The position numbers and the translations under genes are program-made. Below the pieces are notes generated by a model that saw only the letters and a list, made by a program, of their open reading frames with translations, was not told where the DNA came from and searched no databases. From the IMG/VR virus record IMGVR_UViG_3300032047_000003, positions 32,001 to 96,000 of that record: 64,000 nucleotides of DNA, one strand, 5' to 3'. Source of the stretch: a virus. Within the stretch, counting starts at the first letter, position 1. Each line of letters opens with the position of its first letter. Of the stretch, positions 32,901 through 49,797 are shown piece after piece.

Positions 32901-35891
32901 GGGATTAGTTTCAGAAAGCTCCATTAGCATCAAATATCTTCCTGGAAAGCCTTCAACATTGCTCACTTGCGAACGGTTCACAACAACCCTTGGAGTTATG
33001 TCGACTCTTGTAGATGCGTCGAATTCGTTATCTTCATTCAATGTAAAAGACATGTCTACTGCTTTGAAACTTCCCAGAAGCCTAGTTAAAAAAGTATTCA
33101 AAGAAAAAGCATGACTGTCTGGCGCTTCCCTAAAATCTCTTGCTTGTTTTTGCAGCCTGTTTAAAACAGAGTGCAAATGTTTCATCGGAAGGCTCATTGA
33201 ATCCAAACCGTTGTCGCTTAATCCCGAATCAAAACTTTGAATTTCAAAAGCATAACCTGGCTCCATTGAGCCCATGTGCTGTGTTGTGGGAAATTCGTAA
33301 CCCACTATTGGTATGCTAGCCACGATATTGGAAAAAGAAGCAGAGCAAGAAGTTACAAAAACTTCTTGATGGACTTTTTTGCTTCCAAGTTTGTGATATA
33401 TCTCTTTTCTAATGTTTTCGTAATTCAAAATACTTGGGTCTGCTTGCAACCCTTTTTGAAATTCAAACATCTCTTGCATTAAAGCTGCGTCTTCGTTCGA
33501 ATCCAATATAGAGCTTAAGTTAGTTAAAGGAAGGTATTCGTTTTTATATAAAATATTTCCTGGACTACCACCTCTTAAGTAAGGTTGAAACCCAAGTTCG
33601 CTTAATTTAATCATTTTATTTATATACGTTTTAAAAATTAAATTTTCATCTTTAGTCAACGACTTAATGTCTATGTCTTTTTTCATTTGAAAATTATTTG
33701 CGTATGCTTCTACATCGGTTTTCAATCCTATCTTACTTGGGCCTTCTGGCTTTGATTCTTCTTTTGAAAATTTATGCATTAAGAGCGGATATGGCGGTAG
33801 CGCTTTCTTGCCTCCCGCAGCAAATACCCTTATTTCAAAATGCAAATGCTCTCCTTTAGAACCTCCCGTATTCCCCATAAAGCCAATAATGTCTCCTTTT
33901 TTGACCTGTTGACCTCTTTCTACAGCAATAAAAGCTAAATGCGCGTATTTGTGATAGAATACTTCGCCACCTCCAGTAGTGTCACTACTGGATAGCTCTG
34001 TGTAAAAACCATAGCCCGAAGCATTATTTTTTACAAATTCGACCACTGCGTCTTCCACTGCAAAGATCGGAGCTACTCCCTTCCCTTGAATAGTCCTAAG
34101 AGCGCTCTTATGATCATCAGTTGCAAAAGGCTTACTTGAATCTGCTATAAAAGTTTCAAATTTGTCTTTAAAAGATCTTATTTGACCCCTTGCTTTAGAA
34201 GTAGTCCCGCTAACTTTTTCACCTTTTAAAACCTTTTTTAAATCTTCGTAACTCATGTAAGCTTCTTTCTTTACAGCAAGATCTATACCTTTATGAGGCC
34301 TGTTTTTTTTCTTTGATACTGGGTGTATTGGTCTAATCCCATAACCGTCTGTTATAACTGCAGTAGCTTTTTTATCTATTAGAGAGCCTAGGGGCGGGTA
34401 CAAAGTTCCGCCGGAGTCTTCGTATTCTTGAATTGTTAAAATATTCTGACCGTAGCCTGTAAAACTGTAATCCTCTGGACTCGTTTTCGTTCCAAAATTC
34501 CATATTTTACTTACGTCTTTCGAGTTGACGTATTCTCTTCCGTATGAATGTCCATTTACTTTTCCAGTCTTGTACATTCCCTTTAAATTAAGCTGTCTGT
34601 TGTTAGGGAAAGCATAACTGGATAAAGGTACTATCTTGACTTCTTTTAAAAATTCTGCTTGAAGGTATTTTCGCTTGCACCTTTCTACGAATGGGGGCAT
34701 GTTAAGTCGAACAAAACCTCTGTAATTTAATTCAAAAGAAGCGTGATGTGAATGCATCTTAGATAAAATGGAATTTACAATTGAACTATCTTCCAAATGA
34801 AAAGATTGAACTTGATACCAAAGGAAGTTGTCGTTATCTACCGAACTGCTTGTTCTGTGTCCTTTTGTAAATTTTAAATAAGAGTTACTGTATTCAGGTC
34901 CCTTAGAGTTAGCTTCTGCTTCTTCCACGCCCCACTCAGGGTGATATTCTGAAAAAACATCAATCCCGAAATCCGAAAACAATGCTTCAAACTGCAAGTC
35001 GTTAATATAACGCTTGTAGATATTACTGTGGTAAGCAAAAGTTGCAACAGAAGGAGACATGTTATCTGGAAGCTCCATTCCGTCCATGAGAACTCCAGAA
35101 AAATTATTTAAACTATTTTCTAAACTCATATTGTTTGTTGAAGCGTCCAGTAGTGAATTGAAATCCTTATACCTTAAATGCGGATAGTTTTTATAATGTT
35201 TTTTGTCAATCTGCATGTCCATATACCCCCTTTTTAATTCAGGGCCTATTACAACTGGAATGGTTCTTTGAATCCAACTCGCTCCTGACGATATTGGCAA
35301 GGTGTAATAGTCTTTTTTATAGAGGTAGTTTGGAGTATAAGGCAAATAATTAAACCATTTCATGTCAAGTTTAACAATAAACGTACCTGGCAGCCCCGCT
35401 GCTTCGTTTATGTGAAAGTTGGTAACAACAAATGCCATCTGTTGGAAAATGTTATCGCCTTTTTCTGGACTCAAAGAAGGGTCTATTGCATCTTTTATAA
35501 AATTGTTTTGCACGCTAATGAAAGGTGAATTTCTTATTTCTACGATAAGTCTATGCAAGTGAAGAAGCAAGTCTGGAGTGAATATTATATTCACGGTAAC
35601 TTGACAAAAACCTTGCCCGCTCGGGACTTTTGTACTTTTCGAACTTCTTAAAGTTTTCCAGTTCCAATAAACGTCTTCTTTTGATATGTTTATATTTGTA
35701 GGCGGAATATTAAGAGCAATGTCATTGATGATAAAATTAGATTTTGGGTCAATTGTATAAACTATATTGTCGCTATTCTCGTTAGTAACATTAGATTTCC
35801 TTAACGAAGATTTGCCTCCTGGCAAAGCACTATTTTTATTGTAAGAATCTCGAAACAACCCTTTTCCTTTTTGCAACTTACTGCTTCCCAT
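23916..35891 (-). CDS. Giant baseplate hub/tail-associated lysin with M23 metallopeptidase (3991 aa)
   Basis: M23 motifs HKGIDL, YAHL, GDIIGFMGNTGGSKGEHLHFEIR at ~33820-34370. Hub-like (gp27/gp44/VgrG-type) motifs in the C-terminal third: RPGMNIQLRAGYSN...VQSFGTEL, YSGEISILGDPSVKPWD...GPVEVKSVTHIFSFETGYITEI. Confidence 0.8.
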   Translation of the reverse strand: MGSSKLQKGKGLFRDSYNKNSALPGGKSSLRKSNVTNENSDNIVYTIDPKSNFIINDIALNIPPTNINISKEDVYWNWKTLRSSKSTKVPSGQGFCQVTVNIIFTPDLLLHLHRLIVEIRNSPFISVQNNFIKDAIDPSLSPEKGDNIFQQMAFVVTNFHINEAAGLPGTFIVKLDMKWFNYLPYTPNYLYKKDYYTLPISSGASWIQRTIPVVIGPELKRGYMDMQIDKKHYKNYPHLRYKDFNSLLDASTNNMSLENSLNNFSGVLMDGMELPDNMSPSVATFAYHSNIYKRYINDLQFEALFSDFGIDVFSEYHPEWGVEEAEANSKGPEYSNSYLKFTKGHRTSSSVDNDNFLWYQVQSFHLEDSSIVNSILSKMHSHHASFELNYRGFVRLNMPPFVERCKRKYLQAEFLKEVKIVPLSSYAFPNNRQLNLKGMYKTGKVNGHSYGREYVNSKDVSKIWNFGTKTSPEDYSFTGYGQNILTIQEYEDSGGTLYPPLGSLIDKKATAVITDGYGIRPIHPVSKKKNRPHKGIDLAVKKEAYMSYEDLKKVLKGEKVSGTTSKARGQIRSFKDKFETFIADSSKPFATDDHKSALRTIQGKGVAPIFAVEDAVVEFVKNNASGYGFYTELSSSDTTGGGEVFYHKYAHLAFIAVERGQQVKKGDIIGFMGNTGGSKGEHLHFEIRVFAAGGKKALPPYPLLMHKFSKEESKPEGPSKIGLKTDVEAYANNFQMKKDIDIKSLTKDENLIFKTYINKMIKLSELGFQPYLRGGSPGNILYKNEYLPLTNLSSILDSNEDAALMQEMFEFQKGLQADPSILNYENIRKEIYHKLGSKKVHQEVFVTSCSASFSNIVASIPIVGYEFPTTQHMGSMEPGYAFEIQSFDSGLSDNGLDSMSLPMKHLHSVLNRLQKQARDFREAPDSHAFSLNTFLTRLLGSFKAVDMSFTLNEDNEFDASTRVDITPRVVVNRSQVSNVEGFPGRYLMLMELSETNPFQVEQLQVVKERKSLIKKDIEYSDVLLAIKKASYEGLKDEAKKALVINYLKEFKGKWENGEYSVLEYDLDTKDFIEKSYSPARLSADASAPQVSYNGYLMPDSDKVLQIAQSRFGEEVINMIGEDEFEGIVKQYYNAGEEIETIDGGFFSYLEEEDFREFYDDYPWFKDREALTGENTINELIYFIQLLGTIESKIRHTIAEESAGGISKKVAYETLYDLNKWSINSSDVSGEESEVEGYYLNASPSLWRNYIYYNYNFLKEKVVGDGVFDSLNGALGWTKGDLERFQQSIDYGVLYDEYDNLEEEYEKIASVFFFNLVTGPADGSAPEISEIETPVDLVEYFKASNSGSDSALKASFYYELNRALSTTFLLAIGSSGNIELSSSEVIRLVSSGLNDEYQRLGIKTDASIEIKQEDLINLNIDTNGLPNNADKKQQEELAIIYNFRKQIIGNDTMPFYIDRDGNRVLADGNNFRNDFLACRALAERAWNAAVEAGLYNDAVRSQLTKDLYIRAQDLLNEILYDYISKENNLSEDPILQNISKPGAYREEAADGGWAQGFLFKEIPIVETQGITEIHKKARGIVNKNTLVYSRGGHSMYTPLHPVDQLLHDYMKIELQGGIPVFGPSFIADHLLGETEELSHNFNISEQLYLRLDKGIEHVTPGPTAIWNVHPEDEKAINTFLSSNVQRLGNFETTSGSMGWGGAMNTGLNSLFWEDQGSAFDGTTVTQLTLRALAFKDARDQVHGKYINYLDTINLAKVGGMDLLENNFTLLKSYAYMKFSKDAYKDAPPKIQKFIMFKQLESYFEQYSEWFLEPRIINEFGLDDLRSGFNVGLNSIERGFGGMFQTTAHGEYNPDKLDYSASNGAAIAKGVGGGLLVYDVARSLKTGKDVARLTPYGLIGSGIEVGTEAVFRSAHYGSQSIKVDGLSLKTGNPTSTGIYTKEFDLFGNPTGKLSAETLNKLAATSMLINRSNSALSKYYSTKAEELMTRLHSNFKSDVDDKGNLKIESMLGTDVKYLSETANESRYAKGAALSNNFRFRDIRTDLEVLKEINLSNYINADDELKKLEAFRNELKSFVEEVKKNREVCYALGIDFLNESYNYVPPSERYSGIECYPDLGLPNHPFYTQSNFETGAAFYMWDIYNDGGAKITKEFLDEIERNSKVYLEGAYKHLKKMESKSITAIRVADSDATDVTNDNTSGLSTNNEGTDNVLYPYDTYYDSNGHYVLYKNLGEANSPFFTGQAKRNDLTDSLKKEIVTLIQESEGKDSFVFKFDQNGDGSSYDNSYVAETREQVVAQRTSLYRYLRFIDADGNRSITKPWSAKITDGASGFGGMLYDSAATVGGWAVGIDTSYIMDGQQGVQSPSDAISGFNRVHEITGVEPLKAIVKNNSYDSSALYVHENGNLLEEVNSVAMLSDEVMQIENMFGNGAGYVGDLIEEKSENSKAVETLLNDVKLRGLGAQTNYNQTFSLEGLNSLAKASSARLFTEKKKLSRAYPTFKLFFIEEDEFESRFINMDDFYSFNGVRSFSVSRSRENAADSAIISLQNIAGTLDGTRKGATIDVDYFSKKRVERIKRENKSSEKKDRNTLVSYSADNSNLESDTDQPFSAVVLRPGMNIQLRAGYSNNPDNLEVLISGRVTDISWGGAGDTCEIVVQSFGTELVQHLKGIEEDSKNKEYFATHQVLGSLMLSPELKHFGRWETGRIFQYGEAQDARLDFFRYKDNSDPSALQGYKQWAGFLSDWGLETAIASVGIGISFLFTKRLGLGKVGLPGFGLRGFTVKAVEGGSKLAPRTAWRLPFSYIRTAVASLMNPRFFPFVSGSLGRLASRVGLNRVGSLMRGGFSTVSGYTALRRGLAQGGDAALGAFKHLFIGIGDDLVRAASSVVKTVAAEVKVLSAATTSLTQTALRKSLLSVETALKAVPRGSSYAVFKTLTKEIDEIFAIIGRTAVSGADDVLANPQLTKRVFDLFKASERFMIAAVSQPSFARSVYLQGFRGAGGSTPLFLGTTALSATFNSTAIFFKTSLFFFAVDYIGGGIFGKSFTDTHKEYRRLYQNWFTKELVYFKLNPSDDNLYPPSPIYYMHNLTHIEKTVSEKVGMLFQMAFSDFSGAEGKSAMEFLKDWQNVNPLLYLKRVHPDACRYKLQNSTIWDVFHEMTLRHPGWIYSAVPYGKEFRYTMFFGIPSQRYWSKPATPGFIQRMNSVRELLTANVDDEDDLKRFFKQGYNEDYKTKKISDAEYEEFKKKARKNLMSKFKGKARNLLAVANQVKTTYNRAEYHAAMSKRKFTDTWNIAIGVYNPDAIVTEADLKDRQNYYETNSWDETGSNLLFLMEEMLKKPKRYSGMSQRELKRKFERMAAKGEARLKLKDKARSIETDIRADETFSDINDRKKLIEFINNRADHRFSTFGSKIENFLADENNVDERYVEGQTISKDDLELNRNTIELRGRLLKEYLTGLENRFVPFRNYHLIRSRENLIRNNFTVSQRNAVNSVNVYYKDMHDANNKKSVFMKASSNIPDSNLISQNVDKYDIRDRAMATRYGIGSLIYGVKEMYSGEISILGDPSVKPWDVCFLFDDQSKMSGPVEVKSVTHIFSFETGYITEIVPNAIVVGNESSSWPVLEALKVYVGGAIARERSVIDRGSSSDASSVNEQYGGDKNLPAILTTSKDKEELDTAIKRMNESTSRELGEIGYGTLGQRLGIIPESPDVSLNIDGFNLSYEASSSMIERYSDLVRNGIIEYKEVVDIDKNIFGETTNTENNVKATVNLEKLFKDLGNQNPSLNSDFSDFQDQAVSTVESLFDLGVSAFFAADALNPTTGTAGQFATKAIGLTGAGLSLLLLGKWKLNAGGLLKAAGVGGSGGVYMAGVDNQYYYNSSQVLDRFSSSYLIAAPIIFSKLLESEAVTIVPIVKEGKPLFAGVSTRSPTSVWQNILGDIVSGIDDAFRGVFDTIDENEAMGTEFYKHIVSRNPERANDPGLKYLKDSGQLLQYIKGN

Positions 35892-35893
35892 TT

Positions 35894-38800
35894 TTAATCT
35901 CCAAAAAACTTTCGTCGAATATAATTTTCACTTACAGGACCCCTTGTATCATTTATAGTAAAATGACTTTGTCCTCCCATTGCTCCCACAATGTAAGATA
36001 GCTCTGATACTGATCTCATATTATGAGCCATTCCTCTCATTTGAAAACCACCTGGACTGTCTGCTAAAACTTGACCTATATTTATCTGCCTATTCATTAT
36101 ATCATTTTCTATCGAATTCTGCATATTTTGAACTGCTTCTTGACTCGGTCCCGCCTCAAAAGCGTTACCTTCTCTGATAGCGGCTTTTAATTCTGGCGAA
36201 ACCATTTCGCCTTCCATTGATAAAGGCACAGGGTCGTAACCACCATAACCCAAACCCGATCCAAGGGCCATAGTTGCAGCTAAACCAACCCCAAGACTTC
36301 CAATCCTTCCTCTGGAGCCAATTTCTACAGCATTCGTCCTCATAAGAGTACCAATAGTCCTCATCGCCTCTTCAAGGTCACTCATTGTGGTCTGCTCTAT
36401 ATTAGAACCCATTAGTTGCCCTTGAACATTGTTCCTTAGAAGCCCTTGAAACATTTCGTGATAAGCACCGAGTTCTTGCTTGGAAGCAATACTTAAACGT
36501 CTTTCTGTTTTTGCATGCAAATAACCTGCTTCGCTTACATGAGGAAGCAAGCTTCTTAGATAAGGCATTACATAGCTAAGAGCGTCTTCTGCAGAATTGG
36601 TTCCTCCCGGAGCAAACAGATTTATAACTTTTTGACCTTCCAGACTGTCCGCTAGTACGTCCACCCCACCTCCCACTACATTTGTCTTACCAAATGTAAC
36701 ATCGAGATCTACTTCTCTAAAAAGATAGTCTTTAAAAAGTTTTTCGACAGTATCAAAAGCACTAACGTCTCCTTGTATTGCTGCATTAATATTTCTCGAT
36801 ATTGCTTCAGCCAAAGGTATATCAGTTGGAAGTTTTTTGGCTTTAATAACTGCGACTTCTTGTATTGCGGACAACAAGTTCAAAGCATCAGATGCAACCT
36901 TTCTTGTTGATTCATCAGCAGTATTAACGATTCCCAATCTTAAAGCGTCAAAACTAACATCAATTGGCCCTACGTTTTTACCCAGCTGCTCCTGTCTTGC
37001 CTTTACAGCGATTTCTTCAATAAGACTTCTATCAACATCCCCAATGGATCTTCTGAGATTGTCAATACCTTCTCCTGCCATACTAAACAAAACCCTTGTT
37101 TTAGCTCTATAAAGAAGTTTTTGTTTTGCTATGTTTTCTAAATTAGCCTTACCCTTCTTCCCTAAAAGGTTTATTTCTTTTTCTCCTAGATTGCTTCTAG
37201 TAGGAAATAAAAGCTGGTAAATGTCCCCGTCAAAGTCACCTATCATACCACCCGCTAAAGATAAGTCCATTCTTTCCATCTTGCCACCATAGTGAACATC
37301 TACCATAAACTGAGGAATACTAATACGCCCACCGCCCACTCCAGGAGAAATTTCACCCATATGATTTCTCATTGCATCGAAAAAACTTCTTAGAACTTTA
37401 TGCCTTTCCCCTTTGACTGTAACTCGATTTTTAATCTTTGTCATTCCCGCTTGGAGTTCTTGGTCGTAGTTGCCGCTAGCAATCGCTTGATCAATTCTTG
37501 TATTCTTTCCCTTGATATCGTCAATGCTTTGCTGTAGCTCAGCCATACTTTCTGGATCTGACATACTCAACAAGCTTTCTTCCATGCTTTCGATTTTTAA
37601 CAAATTCCTTCCTTTCATATAATCCAGCACATGTTGATCACTAGGTGTTTGTATATTTTTCGGTCCTTGCTTTACAAAAGTCAGCAAATCTTTAAAACCT
37701 TTAACTTCATTACCTGTTAAATTATAAAAGTCCTGCGCAGCCCTTTTGCCGCCTTTAGTTTCAAGAAGCTTTTCAAAAATATTATCCTTCCCGCGCAATT
37801 CAGAAAGTTCTCTAAACGCTCCAACGAACTCTACGTGGGCGCTCCCCATCACGGGATGTCTCGATGCAATAGCAATATTTGCCAAACTTGGGCTAGATTG
37901 ATCATATGAGCTTAGAAAGAAGTATTGAAGGGCATCTCTTGTTGCCCTTTTGCTATCTACCCTAGCTTTTTTAACTGCTTGCTTTGGATCAACTCCTTTT
38001 GATACTGCATTTTGCATTACATATTGAGCATTTACTCCAGATGAAAAACTAGACATTGCATTCAAAAAAGAAGTACTGTCTTGAAAAACAGCATGACCGA
38101 ATGTTACTCTTTGAATTTTTCTCATTAAATATTTTTCTTCATTCGTATAATTGGTAGACCCTAAAGACTTAGACAGATAACCTTTCATTTCGTCTTTACC
38201 GATAACAACATTGTTTAAAATATTCATCCCCTTTCTTTTTGCTGCATCTCTTTCCTTTTGACTTATTCGAGTGTTCTTGCTTTCCCTCATGGTAGAAACG
38301 TAAGTATCGTACGTTTGTTTATCTAAAGAAGAAGCAAAATCTGAAAATATGTCTACTCGTTTTTGAAGACCAACAGATTGGTTCATCCTGTAGTTGCCGC
38401 TTTTTGTTTTTTCGAAAACGTTTCCAGTTATTTCTATTTCTCCGCTTTCCCTGCCTATCTTCAAACCTAAAAACTCATCATGAAACCTACCAGTGTCTAC
38501 AGTTCCACCTAACCCAAAAGTAGATCCAGACATTTTACCTCTTAAAGTCTTTCTAAAAGAGATACCAAAAAATTCACTCATTGAATCTTTAAAATCGTCC
38601 AGCCCTCTAAGGGCCATGCCTATCGCTTCAGTATTGCTTTGTGCTTTAGAAACTTCAACTAAACTTCTACTAAACCTACTTAGCGTTTTGATATAATCTG
38701 CGTCTATTTCTCTAAAAGCATCATCAGTAGGAATCAAAGTTCTTTCTCGTTCAAGAAGCTCCAAGAAGTTATCTCCACCTGGAAGATATATCTGTGAAGG

Positions 38801-41800
38801 AAAACCAGAAGAAGCCATTCTGTTTGTCAGCGTTTTGTCTCCTGACAAGTCTAATAAAAAACCACCTTTTTGTTTTGAAAGAAAACTTCTAATTTCTTTT
38901 TCTGATGAATTCTGAACAAACTCATCCACTGAAACTCTTGGAACGTCTTCTTCAAATAAACTTCTGCTTGCAAAAGACTCCATCGTCTTTGAATATTCCC
39001 TTGCCATTGCAATATCTTCACCAGTATTTTTCTTTCTCGAAAGAATAGAAAACATAAAGTTGGAAACTTTTTCTTTGCTAACGCCCATTTCCTGAGTTAA
39101 TTTATGAGACAAAAAATTATATAAACGCGGCTCAATTGATCCCATATTCTGTCCCAAGCTAGAACTTTGAGGACCGATTTCCAAATTAGTCAAACCTAAT
39201 GCGACACCTTTCGAAACTTGTTTTTTTAATTTTTCTATGTACTTTTCGTAAGAACTGTTTTGGTCAACTGGAAGGCCCATTTCTCTATGTGTGTCTCTTA
39301 CTAAATTTTCAAAATCGCTTCCAGATACGCCTTCAACCGAATCGCCAAACATGCTTTTTGCAAAATAACCAAAAGTCAATCCCTGCTTTTCTATTGCTGT
39401 ATCGCTAATGTCGGTACCATATTTTTTAACTGCTAATTTTATTGCATTTTTTACCAAAGTATTATTTTGCTGAGATACGCTAAGATCGTTAAAAGCTTCT
39501 AGCGACATACCCCCTCTTTTGGTATCTGTCACTAAGCTTTCCAACTCTCTGCTAAAATCACTTTTAGCCACTCCCATTAAGATATCCAACGAGCTGCCAA
39601 TTTGCTCTGCTAAGTTCATTGATGCTTTTTTCAACATAGCCGCATCAGTTGTAAAAACGCCGCTAACATTATTATTGGCTGAACCAACTCTTCCAATAAT
39701 TGTATCGGTCAAACTAGAGCTTATTCCAGCTCTTTGTGTCAAAGTAGACCTCATGGTCTTTTCATTTGTTTTTTCAATTGTACCCTTGAACATAGTAGAA
39801 AAGATCTTCATAAAAGGATTATCTGTATCTCTGAAACCAGTAATCGAATACTTCCTAAGACCTCTTCCTTGACTGTCCAGTTCTTCCGTCAAGCCAAACT
39901 CTAAACCTTCAAGACCCGCATATCGCGGCAAGTATTGACGCCTTCCATCAATCATTCCAAGGTACAATCCAAAATTATCTTCCTTTGCTCCAAACAATCT
40001 AAAGAAATCAGTTATATCAGAATATATTAACTGGTTGGATTCAATTCTAACTTTACCTTCTAGACCTTTTTTAGTAATTAAATCGCTAACCACCTTGGAA
40101 GTTTTTTGAGTTTCTCCTCCCTTCACAACGCTTCCAAAAAAATCTGTAACAAATTCGCCCTGAGCATTTGTTCTCGTTCCAATATTGATATTTCGAATGC
40201 TTTCATCCCCCGTAGCAACTCTATGCTTTAGCTCTTCAAAAAGCACATTAGAGGCTCCCCCAAATTGTTGTGGATCGTAAACAGGTTTATTTATAGCTTT
40301 AGTAACTACTGTTTCTCCAAAATAATTTGCGGTACCTTCTCCTATTCCAAAAATATTTCTTCCCAAATTAAAAACATCTTTATCTCCTTTTCTTGACCCA
40401 GCTAAGACGTCCATAACAGCAATGCCCTTTGGTCTTCGCATTTCTACGCCTCCTTCATAAAGATTGATTGGCGGCGATTGATTTCCGGGATGCATATTGT
40501 ATCCAGCCCTACGTTTGCCTCCTCCCTGTCTTAAAAACTCTTCTCTATTGTACATCTGCCTAAATCTTGCAGTAATCGGCTGAGTTGCTCTATTGGTTAA
40601 AAGCCCTCCAAACTGCCTTTGAGCAGTTTCTATAACTCCGTCAGCAAAATTGCCCCCATACATCTGTTGCAAGAAAGCGCTACGCAATCCAATATCTCCC
40701 ATGCTTTGATTAAAATTACCAGAAGTAAATGGATTTGCTGAAAAGCCAAATAGATCCATTACTTGAGAAAGCATAGGTCTGAGATCCTTTTGATCTGCAG
40801 GCCCCAATCCTAAAGGGTTTATTATCTTCAAGCTATGTCCAGTTTGCCTATACTTTTGCTCTAGAAACATGGAGGTAGTTTCAGAGCCCGTAGAGCCTGT
40901 CCGAGCGCCAAACCTATCGATAAACTCTAAAGATTGCTGCATATTTTGATTTATTAAACTTATATCTCTAGAAGAAACTTTATCAATTCCACCTCTTTTG
41001 TCGACATTCGATATAAACATTTCCGCCAACGCTTGCTCCGGAGTCATAAACTTTCCTTTGGAAATTTTATCTAAAATCATTTGTTTCCTACCTGCAACGT
41101 CTTTTATTTTTGCTACCTCATTTAAATCTGACGCCTTAGCGTAAACTCCAGAACCCGCATACATGGTATTCATATTTCCATATCTAACTGGAAAAACTCC
41201 CTGACTGCTAAAATTACCCAAGCTCAAAGGTAAACTTTGAAGCTTTCTTCCACCTCTGTGTATTTCTACATAAGGCACCACTCCCGTTGTACTGCCTACT
41301 CTTTCCGTTCTAGTGTTAAATTGAAACGAGACTCCCGATCCAGAAAAAGCACTTTCTAAAGCTTGAAAAACTTTTGTGTTTTTGTATTTATTTATTAAGC
41401 CACTGCCTGATTCTATTGAATTCAATCCAGGTTGTATTCCCGAAAGGTTAACCTTTTGAGGTTGAACTAAAAGATCTGAAACGGGATGAAAAGGACTACT
41501 AGCGTATCCTGAAATTTTACTAATCCTATTGCTTCCAGAGGTTTCCGATTCAACAATTTCGTTAATTATTTCTTTTAAAGAATCAGAGTTTTGAGTTAAA
41601 TTTAATTCTCCTTGAAAAGACTGTTGAATTAAGTCTTCGACTACTTTCATCATAGTTCCAGTGCTATCTGAAATATTTGGATCTGCTAATACGGTTTTTA
41701 AATTAGCCAAAAAAGCAGTTTGTTCTTCCGCTTGCCTGACTGCTAATTTTCCTAAAAACTCATCAACATTTTTGAATCTTTTAATCGCGTTTTCTTTTGC

Positions 41801-42058
41801 AGCGGCTTTCACTTGAGACCTGACCATCTGATACCGGTCGAAAGACTCACCTACTTTCGAATGCACATCTCCCATCTGATTAGTAGGTAGATTTGCTAAA
41901 AAATTAGGATTATTAGACTTCATAGATTGAACGCTTTGATAGGACGCAAATCCTAATGGTCCTAAACCAAAAGCAGTATTAAGTAAAGCATTTCCTTTTG
42001 CTTTTAAATCATCAACAGTGTCTGAATCTTTATTAAAAAACGGTAATTTAAAAGCCAT
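35894..42058 (-). CDS. Putative single-chain two-barrel (double-psi beta-barrel) virion RNA polymerase with tape-measure-like termini
   Basis: GDFDGD (DFDGD at 37223-37237), RHP (~37853-37861), LRGK (~38534-38545) and MKIFSTMFKGT (~39779-39811) occur in beta-then-beta' order. Start moved from the GTG at 42064 to the ATG at 42058, which follows a GAGGTG SD. Confidence 0.75.
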   Translation of the reverse strand: MAFKLPFFNKDSDTVDDLKAKGNALLNTAFGLGPLGFASYQSVQSMKSNNPNFLANLPTNQMGDVHSKVGESFDRYQMVRSQVKAAAKENAIKRFKNVDEFLGKLAVRQAEEQTAFLANLKTVLADPNISDSTGTMMKVVEDLIQQSFQGELNLTQNSDSLKEIINEIVESETSGSNRISKISGYASSPFHPVSDLLVQPQKVNLSGIQPGLNSIESGSGLINKYKNTKVFQALESAFSGSGVSFQFNTRTERVGSTTGVVPYVEIHRGGRKLQSLPLSLGNFSSQGVFPVRYGNMNTMYAGSGVYAKASDLNEVAKIKDVAGRKQMILDKISKGKFMTPEQALAEMFISNVDKRGGIDKVSSRDISLINQNMQQSLEFIDRFGARTGSTGSETTSMFLEQKYRQTGHSLKIINPLGLGPADQKDLRPMLSQVMDLFGFSANPFTSGNFNQSMGDIGLRSAFLQQMYGGNFADGVIETAQRQFGGLLTNRATQPITARFRQMYNREEFLRQGGGKRRAGYNMHPGNQSPPINLYEGGVEMRRPKGIAVMDVLAGSRKGDKDVFNLGRNIFGIGEGTANYFGETVVTKAINKPVYDPQQFGGASNVLFEELKHRVATGDESIRNINIGTRTNAQGEFVTDFFGSVVKGGETQKTSKVVSDLITKKGLEGKVRIESNQLIYSDITDFFRLFGAKEDNFGLYLGMIDGRRQYLPRYAGLEGLEFGLTEELDSQGRGLRKYSITGFRDTDNPFMKIFSTMFKGTIEKTNEKTMRSTLTQRAGISSSLTDTIIGRVGSANNNVSGVFTTDAAMLKKASMNLAEQIGSSLDILMGVAKSDFSRELESLVTDTKRGGMSLEAFNDLSVSQQNNTLVKNAIKLAVKKYGTDISDTAIEKQGLTFGYFAKSMFGDSVEGVSGSDFENLVRDTHREMGLPVDQNSSYEKYIEKLKKQVSKGVALGLTNLEIGPQSSSLGQNMGSIEPRLYNFLSHKLTQEMGVSKEKVSNFMFSILSRKKNTGEDIAMAREYSKTMESFASRSLFEEDVPRVSVDEFVQNSSEKEIRSFLSKQKGGFLLDLSGDKTLTNRMASSGFPSQIYLPGGDNFLELLERERTLIPTDDAFREIDADYIKTLSRFSRSLVEVSKAQSNTEAIGMALRGLDDFKDSMSEFFGISFRKTLRGKMSGSTFGLGGTVDTGRFHDEFLGLKIGRESGEIEITGNVFEKTKSGNYRMNQSVGLQKRVDIFSDFASSLDKQTYDTYVSTMRESKNTRISQKERDAAKRKGMNILNNVVIGKDEMKGYLSKSLGSTNYTNEEKYLMRKIQRVTFGHAVFQDSTSFLNAMSSFSSGVNAQYVMQNAVSKGVDPKQAVKKARVDSKRATRDALQYFFLSSYDQSSPSLANIAIASRHPVMGSAHVEFVGAFRELSELRGKDNIFEKLLETKGGKRAAQDFYNLTGNEVKGFKDLLTFVKQGPKNIQTPSDQHVLDYMKGRNLLKIESMEESLLSMSDPESMAELQQSIDDIKGKNTRIDQAIASGNYDQELQAGMTKIKNRVTVKGERHKVLRSFFDAMRNHMGEISPGVGGGRISIPQFMVDVHYGGKMERMDLSLAGGMIGDFDGDIYQLLFPTRSNLGEKEINLLGKKGKANLENIAKQKLLYRAKTRVLFSMAGEGIDNLRRSIGDVDRSLIEEIAVKARQEQLGKNVGPIDVSFDALRLGIVNTADESTRKVASDALNLLSAIQEVAVIKAKKLPTDIPLAEAISRNINAAIQGDVSAFDTVEKLFKDYLFREVDLDVTFGKTNVVGGGVDVLADSLEGQKVINLFAPGGTNSAEDALSYVMPYLRSLLPHVSEAGYLHAKTERRLSIASKQELGAYHEMFQGLLRNNVQGQLMGSNIEQTTMSDLEEAMRTIGTLMRTNAVEIGSRGRIGSLGVGLAATMALGSGLGYGGYDPVPLSMEGEMVSPELKAAIREGNAFEAGPSQEAVQNMQNSIENDIMNRQINIGQVLADSPGGFQMRGMAHNMRSVSELSYIVGAMGGQSHFTINDTRGPVSENYIRRKFFGD

Positions 42059-45000
42059 ATTCACCTCTAATGTATTGCTCTATAATAGCACTTCTGTCAT
42101 CATTCATGTAGAAAACTCCAGAAGTATTTGTTCCAAATCTATTTACATTCATTTGCCCTGTAAAAGGAACGTTGTCCAATTCAGATCTACCTGCAGTTCT
42201 TAAAACAGAACCTAAGTTTAAGCCTCTTCCCATTTCTTCTACAATTGGGTTTTCTACGCCTTCCAAATAGGGCATTCGGGCCTGAAGCCTTAATCTTTGA
42301 TTATACATGTCTAAGTCTCCTAAATCGATTCCAGTTCTATCTGCATATCTTATCTTTACGTCATCCATTTCTACATCTTCGTGCCATCCCACCCAGTCTG
42401 TGCCTGGCATAGGTTTTTCGTAAAAATATTCTTCCAAGCTGGCCAACTTCATTTTTAAATACCTTTCATCAATTTGATTTTTATAGCCTGGGTTTAAAGT
42501 TGGATCGCCAGCATCCAATCTACTCCAAAGACCTATGTAAAGGTCCCTGTTGTCTTCCGGAACCATTTCAAGAATTCTCTCTCTATCTTTTTCTGAAGCC
42601 ATAGAAAAAGCATCAAAAAAAGCTTTTTCTCCTTCTGGCAATGCTTCGTAAATAGCCATAGCATGAGCCTGAGGATTAACCCCAAAAGTAGTCTTAGAAG
42701 CCCTGTAAAGAGCCTGCCTTTTTAAATTACTATCTCCCATTGCTTCAGCTCTATCTGCAATTTTCATCTGTTGAATGAACTGCAATTTGTCAAAATATTC
42801 ATTAGTTTCATTTGCTTTTCTTCTAAAACCTGGGACGTCGCTATAGCCCATTATATGAGCAGCAGAATAGAAGGAAGGTCTAAACCAATCACGAATAGGC
42901 TTATCCCAAAAAGAATTAACCGTACCATAAAGTCTTTCTTGCTCATAAGACTCTATAGCAGAAATCCCCATGTAAGAAGGATCTGTTAATAGCTTTTGCG
43001 AAGGTCTAAATCCCATTGGAACCAAATATTCTGCAGGGGCTAGCCCTGTTTTTAAAACACTCCTAGCAGTTCTACCTATAGCCCTTGTTGTATCGCCCAG
43101 AAAGGGGATGTCATATGCATCTGGATCCATTTCCCTAATACTTTTGTCAGACATTTTTTCATTAAGCATTTTGTCCGTTTTATCCATGTAGGATTCAACA
43201 GCTCTATTCATTTTGCCCGAAGCTCTTTGCTTGTACATGTTTTCTCTAAGCATAATAAACTCTCTAGAGTGAGGAGCTATATCTGCTAGAATGGAATATT
43301 TAAAAATATCTGGGTAGTTTTCAGGACTTATGTTTTTTAATTCAGGATGAATAGCAGCATAACCTGCTCCAGGAAGTCTTACCTCGCCATACTTTACATT
43401 TCTATATGGATCTCCATATTTAAACCTATCAGGCATCCAAGTAGGCATTGAATTGACAATTGGATTATAGTGTTGAATCATAGACCTTTCTCTTGGCAGA
43501 AAACGTCTAATCGGTTCAGTAGTAAAGAACCCGCCGCCTAGTTCTTTTTTCCAAAAGTCTTCTTTTGCCGAAAACATTTTACCCGCACTTTCTAAAACAG
43601 GTCTTTGTATTCCAAAAGTTTCTTCTCCCGTAAGAGCTTTTGTATACATGTTTTTAGCCCAACCGGTAAGACCTTCAAGCTCTCTAAACTGATACTGCAA
43701 TTCTCCCGCTACAAAACTGCTGGAAAACGGAGACATTGGCTTGCCAGGGCTAATACCCCCCAGCTTTCCGCTAGGCCCTTTGTATTCGTTTCTGTGAGCA
43801 AACTCAACGTCTCCTTGTTCGTTAACCCTCATAAACTCATTTACATGCATCAACTTTGGAGGTTTAATTAAACGGCCTACCGTGGCTGACAAAAGCTTTC
43901 CAATTACCGGCACATTTTCAAAAGCTCCCCCAGTTATAGGATAGGGCCTGTCGTAGTAGTTTTCTCTTTCCAGTTGATAAGTAAAGTTTTCTAACAAAAA
44001 GTTGTGTATCGGAGATCGATTGACTTTATACCTTGCTTTATCTGTCGCCTGAGACATGTAAGCTACATAGTCATGTGGTCTGAAATACGAAACACCCTTA
44101 CCTTCATAAGAACTTCCGCCGCCCTCCCACCAGCGCCCTTTTCTCACCTCTACTAGTTGCCTTCCAGAGTATATTTCATTAAGCTCTGTAGGACCCTTCA
44201 TAGACCCAAGAAGGCCACCAGTTACAAACTGTTGAGCTAGCAGACCTCCAAGAAATAAACTTCCGTATCTGCCAAATTTAGTTTTATAGTTTAATTTCTT
44301 CGCAGCCTCAGTAAAGCCTTCACCTTCTTTTGTTGCTCCAAAAAACGAATGTATTATAGAAGCGTTAGCAGTTTCAATTTTCTTTCTAATCCCGCCAAAC
44401 ATTGAAGTGTCATCTATATACCTTGCGTCAATTTCTTCAAGCTTTCTTAAAAAAGACTGATTCATCGGATTGTTTAACCCTGATTCCATTTCTTTTTTAA
44501 CTGCAAGTCCTTGCTCGAATCTTAACGACAGCTCTTCTTGAATCGCTGCAAGTCCTTTTTCACCGAATTCCCTTTTGCTGACGTCCATAAGTAACGAAGA
44601 CAATTTCATTCTTGAGAAATTAGATTCAGATTCCAATAACTCTCTAAGTAAAATATTTTCGTCAACCGTCATTGCGTCGATTAACGTTCTAGGCCCTTTA
44701 AAAATTCTATCTGCTTTTTCGGTTAAAAACCCTTCGCCCTTTATTCCTGCTTGCGTAAATTCTTTTGCTACTGGAAACTCTGTAAAAAACATCGATCTTA
44801 CAGATTGCTTTTGGTAGTATCGTAAACCTCTACTAACTAAAGCATTTTCGTCAAATGCAATTTCAGGAGAAATGCCTAGTTTTATTTTTTGCGATTCATC
44901 TAACTTTTCATATATTCTGCTAGAGATAGGTTTGCCACTGGCTCCACTGGCTAGAGCCAAAGAAAGACCTACAAAAGCCCCCGTCTTCCAATCGGAAACT

Positions 45001-46286
45001 CCTGGAAGAATGCCTTCCATAGTCCTCCTGTAAGAATTCATGAATGTGACTTCTCCTAAAGCTGCGGTTGCGATATGAGCATTCTTGTACATGGTATAGG
45101 CGCCGGCTCCAATTCCTTGATCGAAGCCGGGCAGTATAAGCTGAGCTGCAAAAGCAGCGCCTGCAAACATTCTAGTTTTTTTAGGATCTAAAGTTTTAAA
45201 TAGTTTTTGAGCAGCATGCCCACCCGCCAAAGAAGTCGCAGCGGAAAATACAACATTTCCTAAAAAACCAGTTTCACTTCTCCAATAGTCGGCTTCTTTT
45301 AAACCTACTCCCAATGCACCGAGCTTAAAGGCTTTAAAGCCAAACCTCATAAACATTTCAGAAGCCCTTCCAGGCTTAACCGTAAGCCCTAAGCCAAAAG
45401 AGCTTTCTAATTTGCTTGAAAGCCTATTAACTACAGGGACTTGCTCTGTAGCAGTTTCAAGAAGTCTGTTGGTTCTGTCTAAGCCAAAAGCAAAAATACT
45501 TCTAAAGAAAGTAAACTTGTCGTTTGACTTCACAGACTTTATCGGAAGGAACATCGATTTGTTTTCTTTTTTTACGTCATCGATTACTTCTGAATAAGAA
45601 AATATCCTTTCAAATGCTCTTCTAGTATTGGTTCCAAAATCATCGGCAAAGCCTTGAGCCAAACCATACGCATAAGCTACCGGATTCGTAACTGGAAGTC
45701 GAGAGCCAAATCTTCCGCTCCTACTATCGAAAGAAGTTCGTTGAAGCAAAGACACCTTGTTCGAAACAAGACGTCTTTCATCTCCCTGTTCGAAGAACAA
45801 AGAACCTTGAGTAGACCCTTTTTCTATCTCATAGGAAAAGCTATATCGACCCTTGCCTATGTCTAAGAAAGCAGACCCAAACTCTTCTTCAAGAACTTTT
45901 AACTCTTTTCCAAATTCTTTTTCAAGAAAAACTCTAGTCTCTTTAGAAGCAGACATTTTTTCATCAAAAACGTACTTATAGAAACCATCTTTTTCAACTA
46001 AATCAAGTCCAGAAGGCGAACTAAATGGAGATAAAAATTCAGCAGGTCTAAAGGTATTAAGTAAAGCGGCAGGCGAATTATACGCTATTTGGCGACCGTA
46101 CCTTCTAACGTGATCTAGATAGGTTCCCTCTCCGTATTTTATCTGACTTGAAGCAAATGCCGCTCCGCCTAGGAGACCAAGACCTCCTAGGTAAAACGCA
46201 CCTCTTTCGGTAGGGTTTTCGTAAGGTTCATATTGCGAAGCACTGTACAGTAAAGACTCGCTACCATATCCAATTCCAGGCGGCAT
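42048..46286 (-). CDS. Tape-measure-like / ejected membrane-associated protein (1412 aa)
   Basis: Occupies the canonical tape-measure slot right after the tail assembly chaperones; helical-looking, with several Gly/Ala-rich hydrophobic segments (LGGLGLLGGAAFA, FAGAAFAAQLILPG, GAFVGLSLALASG, GSLFLGGLLAQQFVTGGLLG). Confidence 0.6.
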   Translation of the reverse strand: MPPGIGYGSESLLYSASQYEPYENPTERGAFYLGGLGLLGGAAFASSQIKYGEGTYLDHVRRYGRQIAYNSPAALLNTFRPAEFLSPFSSPSGLDLVEKDGFYKYVFDEKMSASKETRVFLEKEFGKELKVLEEEFGSAFLDIGKGRYSFSYEIEKGSTQGSLFFEQGDERRLVSNKVSLLQRTSFDSRSGRFGSRLPVTNPVAYAYGLAQGFADDFGTNTRRAFERIFSYSEVIDDVKKENKSMFLPIKSVKSNDKFTFFRSIFAFGLDRTNRLLETATEQVPVVNRLSSKLESSFGLGLTVKPGRASEMFMRFGFKAFKLGALGVGLKEADYWRSETGFLGNVVFSAATSLAGGHAAQKLFKTLDPKKTRMFAGAAFAAQLILPGFDQGIGAGAYTMYKNAHIATAALGEVTFMNSYRRTMEGILPGVSDWKTGAFVGLSLALASGASGKPISSRIYEKLDESQKIKLGISPEIAFDENALVSRGLRYYQKQSVRSMFFTEFPVAKEFTQAGIKGEGFLTEKADRIFKGPRTLIDAMTVDENILLRELLESESNFSRMKLSSLLMDVSKREFGEKGLAAIQEELSLRFEQGLAVKKEMESGLNNPMNQSFLRKLEEIDARYIDDTSMFGGIRKKIETANASIIHSFFGATKEGEGFTEAAKKLNYKTKFGRYGSLFLGGLLAQQFVTGGLLGSMKGPTELNEIYSGRQLVEVRKGRWWEGGGSSYEGKGVSYFRPHDYVAYMSQATDKARYKVNRSPIHNFLLENFTYQLERENYYDRPYPITGGAFENVPVIGKLLSATVGRLIKPPKLMHVNEFMRVNEQGDVEFAHRNEYKGPSGKLGGISPGKPMSPFSSSFVAGELQYQFRELEGLTGWAKNMYTKALTGEETFGIQRPVLESAGKMFSAKEDFWKKELGGGFFTTEPIRRFLPRERSMIQHYNPIVNSMPTWMPDRFKYGDPYRNVKYGEVRLPGAGYAAIHPELKNISPENYPDIFKYSILADIAPHSREFIMLRENMYKQRASGKMNRAVESYMDKTDKMLNEKMSDKSIREMDPDAYDIPFLGDTTRAIGRTARSVLKTGLAPAEYLVPMGFRPSQKLLTDPSYMGISAIESYEQERLYGTVNSFWDKPIRDWFRPSFYSAAHIMGYSDVPGFRRKANETNEYFDKLQFIQQMKIADRAEAMGDSNLKRQALYRASKTTFGVNPQAHAMAIYEALPEGEKAFFDAFSMASEKDRERILEMVPEDNRDLYIGLWSRLDAGDPTLNPGYKNQIDERYLKMKLASLEEYFYEKPMPGTDWVGWHEDVEMDDVKIRYADRTGIDLGDLDMYNQRLRLQARMPYLEGVENPIVEEMGRGLNLGSVLRTAGRSELDNVPFTGQMNVNRFGTNTSGVFYMNDDRSAIIEQYIRGEYGF

Positions 46287-46291: not shown

Positions 46292-46963
46292 TTATCTCCT
46301 TCTACTGTCCAATTTCCTCGCTTGACCTTTGGTTAGGTTCGAGCTCTTTTTGCTATCGGCTATATTATTATAAGCGTCCTCAACATCCATTGGGTTTTGA
46401 TTCTTCATTATAGCAGCATTTTCTGCTGCAAAGTCAATTCCATGAGATGGTTTATTTTTCTTTTTAGGCTGCTTGCCCACTTTGCTTAAATCCAAAAGCT
46501 CATAGTCGCTTTGTTTTTTCTTTAAAACATTTTCAGAAATACTAAACTTTTCAATAAACTCTACTCTCGTCCAAGACTCTATATCTTCTAAAGAGTACAT
46601 GGGGAAAGCTGTTACTATCACTGCTCTCATATACTCATGCAAAGTATCGGGCGGATTCTTTCTTCTAAAAGAACTTATATCTGAAATGATCGTTTTCGTA
46701 TCGCAATCACCAGATAAAAAAAGTATAAGCTTACCCAAAGAAACAGTTATTCCAGCATGCAAGGATTCAGGCAGCAAGCCTGTGTTACCTACATAGCAGT
46801 ACTTGAAAACTTGTTCTTCTAACTCGTTTGGAAGGAAAATCCCAGACGATCTTAGCGAAACAATCTTTCTGTACTCTTTTATAGATAAAAGCTTGTATCT
46901 AAACACTCCAATTCCAGGAATTTGAGTAGAATAAAGGTCTGTTTTGAGTAAGCTTTCTAACAC
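46292..46963 (-). CDS. Tail assembly chaperone (paralogue 2)
   Basis: FRYKLLSIKEYRKI...FKYCYV...HAGITVSLGKLILFLSG mirrors the upstream chaperone; GTG start 4 nt after the upstream stop. Confidence 0.65.
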   Translation of the reverse strand: MLESLLKTDLYSTQIPGIGVFRYKLLSIKEYRKIVSLRSSGIFLPNELEEQVFKYCYVGNTGLLPESLHAGITVSLGKLILFLSGDCDTKTIISDISSFRRKNPPDTLHEYMRAVIVTAFPMYSLEDIESWTRVEFIEKFSISENVLKKKQSDYELLDLSKVGKQPKKKNKPSHGIDFAAENAAIMKNQNPMDVEDAYNNIADSKKSSNLTKGQARKLDSRRR

Positions 46964-46967
46964 GGAA

Positions 46968-47717: not shown

Positions 47718-47729
47718 TCATTCTCCTTA

Positions 47730-49736: not shown

Positions 49737-49742
49737 TGCAGT

Positions 49743-49797
49743 CTCCAAAAAGAATATCCTTCTCCTGGATATTATAACATATGTCAAGAGAAGGATA
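49743..49797 (-). terminator. Probable intrinsic terminator after tail tube gene
   Basis: Minus strand TATCCTTCTCTTG...CAGGAGAAGGATA (13-bp stem with one G-U pair) followed by TTCTTTTT, 30 nt after the tube stop codon; loop is long. Confidence 0.6.

What the first reader, a model, noticed from the sequence alone, without database searches (positions are those of the whole stretch)
35900..42113. Shared C-terminal motif on the tape-measure-like protein and the putative RNAP
Seen: the 1412 aa protein ends FYMNDDRSAIIEQYIRGEYGF (~42051-42113) and the RNAP candidate ends FTINDTRGPVSENYIRRKFFGD (~35897-35962), giving F-x-[MI]-N-D-x-R-x4-E-x-Y-I-R with identical spacing. The 3991 aa protein ends more loosely in LLQYIKGN. 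Established: tape-measure C-termini anchor in the baseplate hub. Inference: this is a common docking or loading signal, so both proteins may be co-loaded as a hetero-oligomeric tape, or the RNAP gene arose from a duplicated tape-measure gene.
Basis: partly seen in the sequence, partly recalled or inferred. Interest (0 to 1): 0.72.

Follow-up and report, generated by a model that had tools for sequence, protein, structure and literature searches.

The report
Shared C-terminal tag on two tail giants
Two neighbouring giant proteins in the tail gene block of an uncultured contractile-tailed phage, one of them an RNA-polymerase-like enzyme, end in the same conserved 25-residue tag. It is most likely the handle that anchors both at the tail tip so that they are loaded into the tail and injected ahead of the DNA.

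Summary
The 1412-aa protein (P1) and the 2056-aa protein (P2) both end in phi-x-phi-N-D-x-R followed by an amphipathic helix, 14 and 15 residues from their stops. A pairwise BLASTP alone is not significant. The motif is nevertheless conserved in 59% of 174 distinct P1 ends and 52% of 64 distinct P2 ends. It is absent from 111 third-protein (P3) ends and from 603 other ORFs. Profile-profile P is 8e-5 to 2e-4, with 0 of 300 shuffles reaching the observed score. Codon choice shows that selection acts on the protein.

Similarity stops at the last 26-27 residues, so a whole-gene duplication is not supported. The 3991-aa protein does not share the tag.

P2 sits in the tape-measure slot and carries a conserved DxDxD loop. 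Its predicted fold is closest to two-barrel RNA polymerases. P1 is a relative of 0305phi8-36 gp145, not a classical tape measure.

Best reading (about 0.5): a common hub or spike docking tag for two tail-lumen cargo proteins. Binding itself is not shown. The scan has already found the polymerase in the tail slot on other DNA; the shared tag is the new point here.

The parts
42048..46286 (-). P1 (P0001), 1412 aa. Relative of the 0305phi8-36 gp145 / WH1 gp096 / ME3 gp35 virion structural proteins. Conserved globular domain at about residues 700-1350, fold unknown.
42051..42128 (-). P1 C-terminal tag (last 26 aa, residues 1387-1412): beta strand, N-D-D-R turn, amphipathic helix. The last codons overlap the Shine-Dalgarno site and start of P2.
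35894..42064 (-). P2 (P0002), 2056 aa (probable ATG start at 42058). Occupies the tape-measure slot and carries a two-barrel RNA-polymerase-like core.
35897..35974 (-). P2 C-terminal tag (last 26 aa, residues 2031-2056): h-I-N-D-T-R-x-P-I-[ST]-x-x-Y-I-x-R. The last codons carry the GGAG Shine-Dalgarno site of P3.
36365..39247 (-). P2 residues 940-1900: predicted RNA-polymerase core (AF2 pLDDT 83.8, pTM 0.81).
37223..37237 (-). DFDGD metal-binding loop of P2 (residues 1610-1614). The DxDxD column is kept in all aligned homologues.
36248..36304 (-). Hydrophobic, membrane-like segment of P2 (residues 1921-1939).
23916..35891 (-). P3 (P0003), 3991 aa, hub-like giant protein. Does not carry the tag.
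33825..34082 (-). Peptidase_M23 domain of P3 (residues 604-689).
24999..25571 (-). Most conserved block of P3 (residues 3441-3631). Its nearest Atlas clusters are the hub families YqbQ, Mu gpP and Phage_GPD (a lead only).
23348..23914 (-). 188-aa protein (P0286) just after the hub gene. Candidate central spike, by position only.
46292..48518 (-). Three small ORFs (223, 249 and 262 aa) between the tube genes and P1. Candidate tail assembly chaperones, by position only.
48522..53396 (-). Tail sheath (964 aa), tube-like protein (220 aa) and tube paralogue (421 aa).
21147..22376 (-). Baseplate J-like wedge protein.

Best explanation
The last ~25 residues of P1 and P2 form a shared C-terminal docking tag: a beta strand, an invariant N-D-x-R turn and an amphipathic helix. 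During tail assembly the tag most likely anchors each protein at the tail-tip initiator (the gp27-like hub part of P3 and/or the N-terminus of the central spike). The tube then polymerises around both proteins, and both leave the tail ahead of the DNA on contraction.

P2 would then deliver a two-barrel RNA polymerase, as the tape-measure-fused polymerase of Thermus phage P23-45 does. P1 would deliver a conserved domain of unknown function.

The two tags are family-specific variants. P2 always has R-x-P after the turn; P1 usually has an acidic residue three positions after R. This fits two related but non-identical sites, for example the quasi-sixfold tube-like domains of a trimeric hub, or three of six lumen chains each.

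Shown: the motif, its conservation, its restriction to these two C-termini, protein-level selection, the gene context and the RNAP-like core. Inferred: the location in the lumen, the partner, the stoichiometry and ejection.
For: Motif and statistics:
- The motif is present at both ends.
- It is conserved in >200 P1 homologues and in all 12 P2 homologues found, and in 79 IMG/VR loci that keep the order P1-P2-P3.
- It is enriched only at P1 and P2 ends: 59% and 52% against 0/111 P3 ends and 0/603 other ORFs.
- Profile-profile P is 2e-4 and 8e-5, with 0/300 shuffles reaching the score.
- The N, D and R codons vary synonymously (R uses AGA, AGG and CGN), so selection acts on the protein.

Structure and gene context:
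- AF2 predicts a hairpin plus helix with low pLDDT (47-67), not packed on P1's confident globular domain, as expected for an element that folds on a partner.
- The gene order is sheath, tube, small ORFs, P1, P2, hub-like P3, candidate spike, baseplate J. It is syntenic with 0305phi8-36 gp143/144 chaperonins, gp145, gp146 (tape measure) and gp147 (hub).
- The gene junctions abut or overlap in 57/65 and 47/54 loci, which suggests coupled translation.

Literature and distribution:
- Only the last 60 aa of 0305phi8-36 gp146 are conserved with its prophage relative (PMC2147016).
- In myophage A-1(L), the C-terminal 20 residues of three tape-measure chains form a tripod with the spike N-terminal helices, while the lumen bundle looks sixfold (PMC10966104).
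- The tag also occurs on P2 proteins without any DxDxD (6 loci, and by eye on 0305phi8-36 gp146). It therefore goes with the slot, not with the polymerase.
Against: - No physical or modelled contact with a hub or spike protein was obtained.
- In both proteins a large, confidently folded domain lies directly upstream of the tag: the RNAP core ends ~130 aa before it and P1's 650-aa domain ~40 aa before it. These domains would have to sit unfolded or extended at the baseplate end of a ~4 nm lumen, or in a hub cavity. In P23-45 the polymerase is at the opposite, N-terminal end.
- Some lineages have lost the N-D-x-R core on P1 while keeping it on P2.
- The candidate spike evolves fast, with only 8 homologues found. 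That fits poorly with an invariant N-D-x-R unless the conserved hub block is the partner.
- A single-family HMM of P1 ends finds the P2 end only at E=2.8, rank 6 of 543 genome ORFs.
- For the Bacillus phage P2-equivalents the match is weak (i-E 0.25-4.3, though at the right position).
Confidence: 0.5

Rival explanations
1. The tag is an oligomerisation element. The hairpin-helix ends of P1 and P2 pack with each other into a mixed bundle or small barrel, giving a hetero-oligomeric tape. The hub contact, if any, is made by the assembled bundle.
For: The two proteins share the element and are translated from abutting genes. In A-1(L) and Pam3 the lumen bundle appears sixfold while only three distal ends are seen (PMC10966104), which leaves room for a 3+3 arrangement. 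The tag is disordered on its own in the AF2 model.
Against: Similarity between the P1 and P2 tags within a genome is not clearly higher than between genomes (33 genomes, permutation p=0.087). Some lineages lack the core on P1 but keep it on P2. No model of the mixed bundle was made.
Confidence: 0.15
2. The tag is the recognition site for the tail assembly chaperones encoded just upstream. The chaperones keep both giant proteins soluble and recruit tube subunits, and the tag has no role in the finished tail.
For: Three small ORFs lie between the tube genes and P1. In 0305phi8-36 the equivalent gp143 and gp144 are called tail chaperonins and are not virion proteins. Two clients sharing one chaperone system would explain a shared tag.
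Against: In lambda, as I recall, the G and GT chaperones coat the tape measure along its length rather than binding a C-terminal peptide. The small ORFs here have no family assignment, and the domain-sharing pattern described for gp143/gp144 was not found between the 249-aa and 223-aa ORFs.
Confidence: 0.12
3. The tag acts after ejection. For example, it could tether the polymerase (P2) and P1 to the trans-envelope channel or to a host component, so that transcription is coupled to DNA entry.
For: [quoted passage not shown] P2 has a hydrophobic segment ~90 aa before the tag.
Against: The tag also occurs on slot proteins with no DxDxD. A host partner would not be expected to keep N-D-x-R invariant across phages as distant as those of Bacillus and those from metagenomes.
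Confidence: 0.1
4. The tag is the relic of a whole-gene duplication of a tape-measure gene, with everything else diverged beyond recognition and no common function today.
For: The genes are adjacent, both are giant, and they share an end.
Against: Full-length hhalign of the two family profiles finds only the last 27 columns, and the 110-aa tails align only over 26 columns. P1's body is one of the best conserved proteins of the clade (38% mean column identity over 58 sequences), so decay beyond recognition is unlikely. A relic without function would not stay invariant in both families.
Confidence: 0.04
5. The resemblance is due to chance, or is a by-product of nucleotide signals for the next gene's ribosome binding site.
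For: Pairwise BLASTP gives E=0.37. The last 3-5 codons of both genes do encode the Shine-Dalgarno sequence of the next gene (GAGGTG and GGAG), which can explain the terminal G-[DE].
Against: The N-D-x-R core lies 45-55 nt upstream of the next start and shows free synonymous variation. The family-level enrichment and the shuffle controls also argue against chance.
Confidence: 0.01

Closest known systems
C-terminal distal helices of myophage and siphophage tape measure proteins (Anabaena myophage A-1(L) gp13 residues 666-689; also 80alpha, T5, lambda; PMC10966104)
   Same: It lies at the extreme C-terminus of a protein encoded between the tail chaperones and the hub. It is about 20-25 residues long and ends in a helix. 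The proposed role is to grip the spike or hub, where tube assembly starts.
   Different: Here it is a defined sequence motif (phi-x-phi-N-D-x-R plus helix) preceded by a predicted hairpin. It is carried by two different giant proteins in the same tail, one of them an enzyme. No structure shows it bound. P2 gpT has a look-alike end by eye (…QLDRQLQDALEKY…), but the motif HMMs do not detect it.
Thermus phage P23-45 gp96, the tape-measure-fused virion RNA polymerase (PMC10770324)
   Same: A DFDGD-bearing two-barrel polymerase encoded in the tape-measure position of a long-tailed phage, with a membrane-like segment in the same chain. The presumed role is injection for pre-early transcription.
   Different: P23-45 is a siphovirus, and its polymerase is at the N-terminus of a 5002-aa chain. 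Here the tail is contractile, the core lies in the C-terminal half next to the tag, and a second tagged giant protein accompanies it. The family profile found no sequence match in the PDB sequence set, although relatives of the P23-45 polymerases are deposited there. The structural hits are to QDE-1, RDR2, P74-26 gp62 and cellular RNAPs.
Bacillus phage 0305phi8-36 gp145 / gp146 / gp147 (and WH1 gp096/095/094, Acinetobacter phage ME3 gp35/36/37)
   Same: The same three-giant-gene layout follows the tail chaperonins. P1 is a detectable homologue of gp145, gp096 and gp35 (tblastn E 1e-13 to 4e-48). gp145 and gp146 are virion proteins by mass spectrometry (record notes). The ends of gp145 and gp146 look like the tag. 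Hardies et al. noted that only the last 60 aa of gp146 are conserved.
   Different: P2 has no BLAST-detectable similarity to gp146 or gp095. 0305phi8-36 gp146 has no DxDxD. HMM support for the tag on the Bacillus P2-equivalents is weak. The shared tag on gp145 and gp146 is not mentioned in the paper I read.
Cargo-loading signals of extracellular contractile injection systems (PVC/Afp payload N-terminal signals; from my own knowledge, not checked here)
   Same: A short, portable peptide that decides which proteins ride inside a contractile tube.
   Different: Those signals are N-terminal and disordered, and they sit on small effectors. This one is C-terminal and sits on giant proteins in the ruler position.

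Membership tests
Tape-measure C-terminal hub/spike-docking element | Located at the extreme C-terminus of a protein encoded between the tail chaperone genes and the hub gene | tested here: met
   The gene order and the positions 14 and 15 residues from the stops.
Tape-measure C-terminal hub/spike-docking element | About 20 terminal residues form a helix that bundles as a trimer | tested here: inconclusive
   AF2 predicts a helix at residues 1399-1409 after a hairpin, but with pLDDT 47-67. The oligomeric state was not modelled.
Tape-measure C-terminal hub/spike-docking element | Physical contact with the central spike N-terminus or the gp27-like hub | not testable with these tools
   Needs cryo-EM, cross-linking or pull-down. 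No usable model was obtained.
Tape measure protein (length ruler) | Protein length scales with tail length; extended helical body | not testable with these tools
   No tail lengths are available. P2 length varies more (749-3222 aa) than P1 length (1109-2123 aa; interquartile range 1301-1438). P1's C-terminal half is a confident globular domain.
Two-barrel (DPBB) RNA polymerases | Conserved DxDxD metal loop in a beta-prime-like barrel, with the upstream R-x-P...H...F block | tested here: met
   DFD[GA]D is present in all 12 homologues. The DxDxD column is kept in 17 aligned P2 proteins, and the RHP..G.HV..FR and IKAKK blocks are conserved.
Two-barrel (DPBB) RNA polymerases | Overall two-barrel fold | tested here: met
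   AF2 pLDDT 83.8. All VIA-align hits with more than 220 aligned residues are RNAPs: RDR2 Z 9.8 (271 aligned, rmsd 4.8), QDE-1 Z 9.7 (239, 4.1), P74-26 gp62 Z 8.0 (229, 4.8), archaeal RNAP Z 8.0 (264, 6.0), Pol I Z 7.9 (384, 5.2). The Z values are moderate, and Foldseek against PDB gave nothing below E=1e-3.
Two-barrel (DPBB) RNA polymerases | RNA synthesis activity and presence in the virion | not testable with these tools
   Needs a biochemical assay and virion proteomics.
0305phi8-36 gp145 family of virion proteins (for P1) | Significant sequence similarity over the conserved C-terminal half | tested here: met
   tblastn gives ME3 E=4e-48, Moorella phage 3e-18, WH1 1e-17 and 0305phi8-36 1e-13.
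P1/P2 as whole-gene paralogues | Homology outside the terminal tag | tested here: not met
   hhalign of A2 against A1 aligns only 27 terminal columns. BLASTP finds nothing else.
Tag shared by the third giant protein (P3) | N-D-x-R tag, or a conserved 'QYIKGN' end, in P3 homologues | tested here: not met
   0/111 P3 ends carry the strict motif. The ending is kept only in the two nearest relatives.

The most novel reading that the evidence does not exclude
The tag is a portable 'load me into the tail' address. A contractile-tailed phage lineage would use it to dock two different giant cargo proteins (an RNA polymerase and an unknown conserved enzyme-sized domain) side by side at quasi-equivalent hub sites. 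That would give a mixed 3+3 lumen bundle that is injected before the DNA. Such a tag could then be transplanted to load foreign proteins into phage tails.
Probability: 0.2. Interest if true: 0.8.

Novelty: new variant of a known kind. Interest (0 to 1): 0.55.

Why it matters
How large enzymes get into and out of phage tails is an open question. It was raised by the single described case of a tape-measure-fused polymerase, P23-45.

A short, sequence-defined C-terminal tag shared by two otherwise unrelated giant tail proteins, across hundreds of mostly uncultured phages, gives a concrete handle on that question. The tag tells which proteins are likely tail cargo. It points to where to look in cryo-EM maps of cultured relatives (0305phi8-36, WH1, ME3). 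It can also be deleted or transplanted to test loading.

If the tag is portable, it would be a loading signal for contractile tails that differs from the N-terminal signals known for extracellular contractile injection systems.

Tried and rejected
- Complex prediction with the candidate spike P0286 x3 and the P2 C-terminal 45 aa x3 gave 'no answer' (score 0.00; the machine was busy). This counts neither for nor against binding.
- hmmsearch with a P1-ends HMM against all genome ORFs found the P2 end only at rank 6, E=2.8, so single-family HMMs are too weak for a 25-aa element.
- A test for co-variation of the P1 and P2 tags within genomes gave p=0.087 and is inconclusive. Anchoring was imperfect for the distant loci.
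- Pfam and PHROGs gave nothing for P1 or P2, or for their last 110 aa.
- PDB sequence profiles gave nothing.
- Foldseek against PDB gave nothing for either model.
- VIA-align gave no convincing fold for P1's domain (best Z 6.7), and the Atlas gave nothing for P1.
- tblastn of P2 against 50,697 phage records found no match.
- The domain sharing reported for the 0305phi8-36 chaperonins was not seen between the 249-aa and 223-aa ORFs.
- Pfam found no family in ten short P3-family fragments.
- The P2 gpT C-terminus looks similar by eye, but the HMMs do not support it. I do not count it as evidence.
- My first statement that the Bacillus and ME3 P2-equivalents lack a DxDxD rested on too narrow a pattern. 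WH1 gp095 has ADHDGDN and ME3 gp36 has GGDHDQDQ. Only 0305phi8-36 gp146 and Moorella gp27 have none.
- A literature search for dual tape measures found nothing relevant.

Full report
**Anatomy**

All genes of the window lie on the minus strand. From high to low coordinates the tail block reads as follows:
- a sheath of 964 aa, a tube-like protein and a tube paralogue;
- three small ORFs without a family assignment;
- three giant genes: P1 (42048-46286, 1412 aa), P2 (35894-42064, 2056 aa) and P3 (23916-35891, 3991 aa, with a Peptidase_M23 domain);
- a 188-aa protein, two small ORFs and a Baseplate_J wedge protein.

This layout is syntenic with the Bacillus jumbo myophage 0305phi8-36. There the order is gp143/144 tail chaperonins, gp145 virion protein, gp146 'hypothetical tape measure' and gp147 hub with wall-degrading domains, followed by a P2 gpV-like protein. 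It is also syntenic with phages WH1 and ME3. P1 is a detectable homologue of gp145, gp096 and ME3 gp35. P2 has no BLAST-level relative among 50,697 phage records.

**The observation**

The core phi-x-phi-N-D-x-R ends 14 residues (P1) and 15 residues (P2) before the stop.

BLASTP of the two proteins ranks this alignment first, but at E=0.37. The case therefore rests on conservation.

**Conservation**

The P1 family has more than 200 members. Almost all listed members end in ...h-Y-N-D-[DN]-R-x-x-[ED]-I....

The P2 family evolves much faster. Twelve homologues were found, down to 24% identity, and every one keeps h-I-N-D-T-R-x-P-I-[ST]-x-x-Y-I-x-R at its end.

A scan of IMG/VR gave 79 loci that keep the order P1-P2-P3. 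The tag is visible on both proteins in most of them, including very distant ones. In locus L076, for example, P1 ends ...RYNVQVQDGRRDLVEQAYKQLGA and P2 ends ...VNIRTRDDRSILDPRMLANKIHERL.

Counts for the strict motif in the last 30 residues:

| Set | With motif |
|---|---|
| Distinct P1 ends | 102 of 174 |
| Distinct P2 ends | 33 of 64 |
| P3 ends | 0 of 111 |
| Other ORFs of the same loci | 0 of 603 |

Inside the proteins the motif density is about 0.0003 per 30 residues. In the phage's own 111.6-kb contig the motif occurs three times: the two ends and one internal site.

Profile-profile comparison of the two sets of ends gives P=2e-4 over 25 columns. A column-shuffle null never comes near the observed score of 19.3 (null mean 5.6, max 11.5, 0 of 300 shuffles). 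With 110-residue tails the alignment is again only the last 26 columns, at P=8e-5.

The N, D and R codons vary synonymously, so selection acts on the peptide and not on an RNA or DNA signal. Only the last three to five codons double as the Shine-Dalgarno sequence of the next gene.

**What does not hold**

- The 'E-x-Y-I-R' face on P1 is confined to this phage and its nearest relative.
- The 'LLQYIKGN' end of P3 is kept only in its two nearest relatives, and the P3 family has no N-D-x-R.
- Full-length profile comparison of the P1 and P2 families finds nothing but the last 27 columns. A whole-gene duplication is therefore not supported. What the two proteins share is a small terminal module.

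**What the two proteins are**

P2 carries an invariant DxDxD loop (DFDGD at residues 1610-1614) preceded by an R-H-P..G.H-V..F-R block. This is the pattern of the beta-prime double-psi barrel. An AF2 model of residues 940-1900 is confident (pLDDT 83.8, pTM 0.81). Foldseek found nothing significant in the PDB. In the exhaustive VIA-align search, however, every hit with more than 220 aligned residues is a two-barrel polymerase:

| Hit | Z | Aligned residues |
|---|---|---|
| RDR2 | 9.8 | 271 |
| QDE-1 | 9.7 | 239 |
| P74-26 gp62 | 8.0 | 229 |
| Archaeal RNAP | 8.0 | 264 |
| Pol I | 7.9 | 384 |
| Vaccinia RNAP | 7.9 | 317 |

The protein sits in the tape-measure slot, which recalls P23-45 gp96 (PMC10770324).

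P1 has a very conserved 650-residue globular domain with no match in Pfam, PHROGs or the PDB. It is not an obvious ruler.

In the AF2 model of P1 the last 60 residues form a hairpin (1377-1384 and 1387-1394) and a helix (1399-1409). Their pLDDT is low (47-67), and they do not pack against the domain. The tag itself is the second strand, the N-D-D-R turn and the helix.

**Mechanism**

Solved tails show that the last ~20 residues of tape-measure chains form helices that grip the spike or hub. In A-1(L) the lumen bundle looks sixfold while only three distal ends are seen (PMC10966104). For 0305phi8-36, only the last 60 residues of gp146 were found conserved with its prophage relative (PMC2147016).

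The simplest reading is that the tag is this docking element, and that both P1 and P2 use it in this lineage. The two family-specific variants (R-x-P in P2, an acidic residue in P1) suggest related but non-identical sites.

The most conserved block of P3 (residues 3441-3631) resembles gpD, Mu gpP and YqbQ hub families in the Atlas. This is a lead only. That block would be a conserved partner suited to an invariant N-D-x-R.

Tight or overlapping gene junctions in most loci fit coupled production of the proteins. The tag also occurs on slot proteins with no DxDxD, so it belongs to the slot and not to the polymerase.

**Open problems**

- Both proteins have large folded domains directly upstream of the tag. 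It is hard to see how these fit at the distal end of a narrow lumen.
- P1 has lost the N-D-x-R core in some lineages.
- No contact with any partner was modelled or measured. Rivals (self-association, chaperone recognition, a post-ejection role) cannot be excluded.

**Relation to earlier scan notes**

Other notes of this scan already describe a polymerase in the tail slot of myoviruses on other DNA, and candidate promoters for an injected polymerase in this genome. None of those shown mentions the shared C-terminal tag.

Noticed in passing
P1 homologues P0057 (2181 aa) and P0119 (1733 aa): Two P1 homologues carry intein and homing-endonuclease domains (PF14528, PF14890; P0057 also PF01079). Inteins therefore invade this tail gene in some phages.
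   Followed up: no
window 42250-44190 (-), P1 residues ~700-1350: A very conserved 650-aa globular, mostly helical domain (blocks GRWWEGGG, NYYDRPYPIT, ARLPGAGYAALHPEL). It has a confident AF2 model but no Pfam, PHROG, PDB-sequence, Foldseek or VIA match. It could be an unknown injected enzyme.
   Followed up: partly
window 42048-42064 and 35889-35905 (-): The last codons of P1 and P2 encode the ribosome binding sites of the next genes (AGAGGTGAATATG with an overlapping start; GGAGATTAAAAATG). The three giant genes are probably translationally coupled.
   Followed up: partly
window 11630-13717 (-), residue 62 of the 695-aa ORF: This is the only other occurrence of the strict motif in the genome (NLNINDLRS). 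It is internal and near the N-terminus of a downstream tail or baseplate-region protein, and is probably chance.
   Followed up: no
L001 (WH1 gp095, residue 1996) and L082 (ME3 gp36, residue 1217): The P2-equivalents of cultured phages WH1 and ME3 carry beta-prime-like loops: KADHDGDN and GGDHDQDQ. A BFVD model of an ME3 protein matches the P2 polymerase model (Foldseek E=0.018, prob 1.00, TM 0.32/0.38). The 'tape measure' of these isolates may hide a polymerase too. 0305phi8-36 gp146 has no DxDxD.
   Followed up: partly
P2 homologues in L005, L015, L022, L026, L032: The middle residues of the metal loop vary (DFDKD, DMDGD, DADGD, DNDGD), while the three aspartates stay.
   Followed up: no
L083 (Moorella phage MTATph1) 19422-20909: A transposase gene sits directly after the P2-equivalent, which lacks the tag. 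This may be a disrupted tail module.
   Followed up: no
P3 family C-termini: Many P3 homologues end with a loosely conserved Y-G-x-x-x-W-R-R ... T-G-[ED] pattern, which is unrelated to the P1/P2 tag.
   Followed up: no
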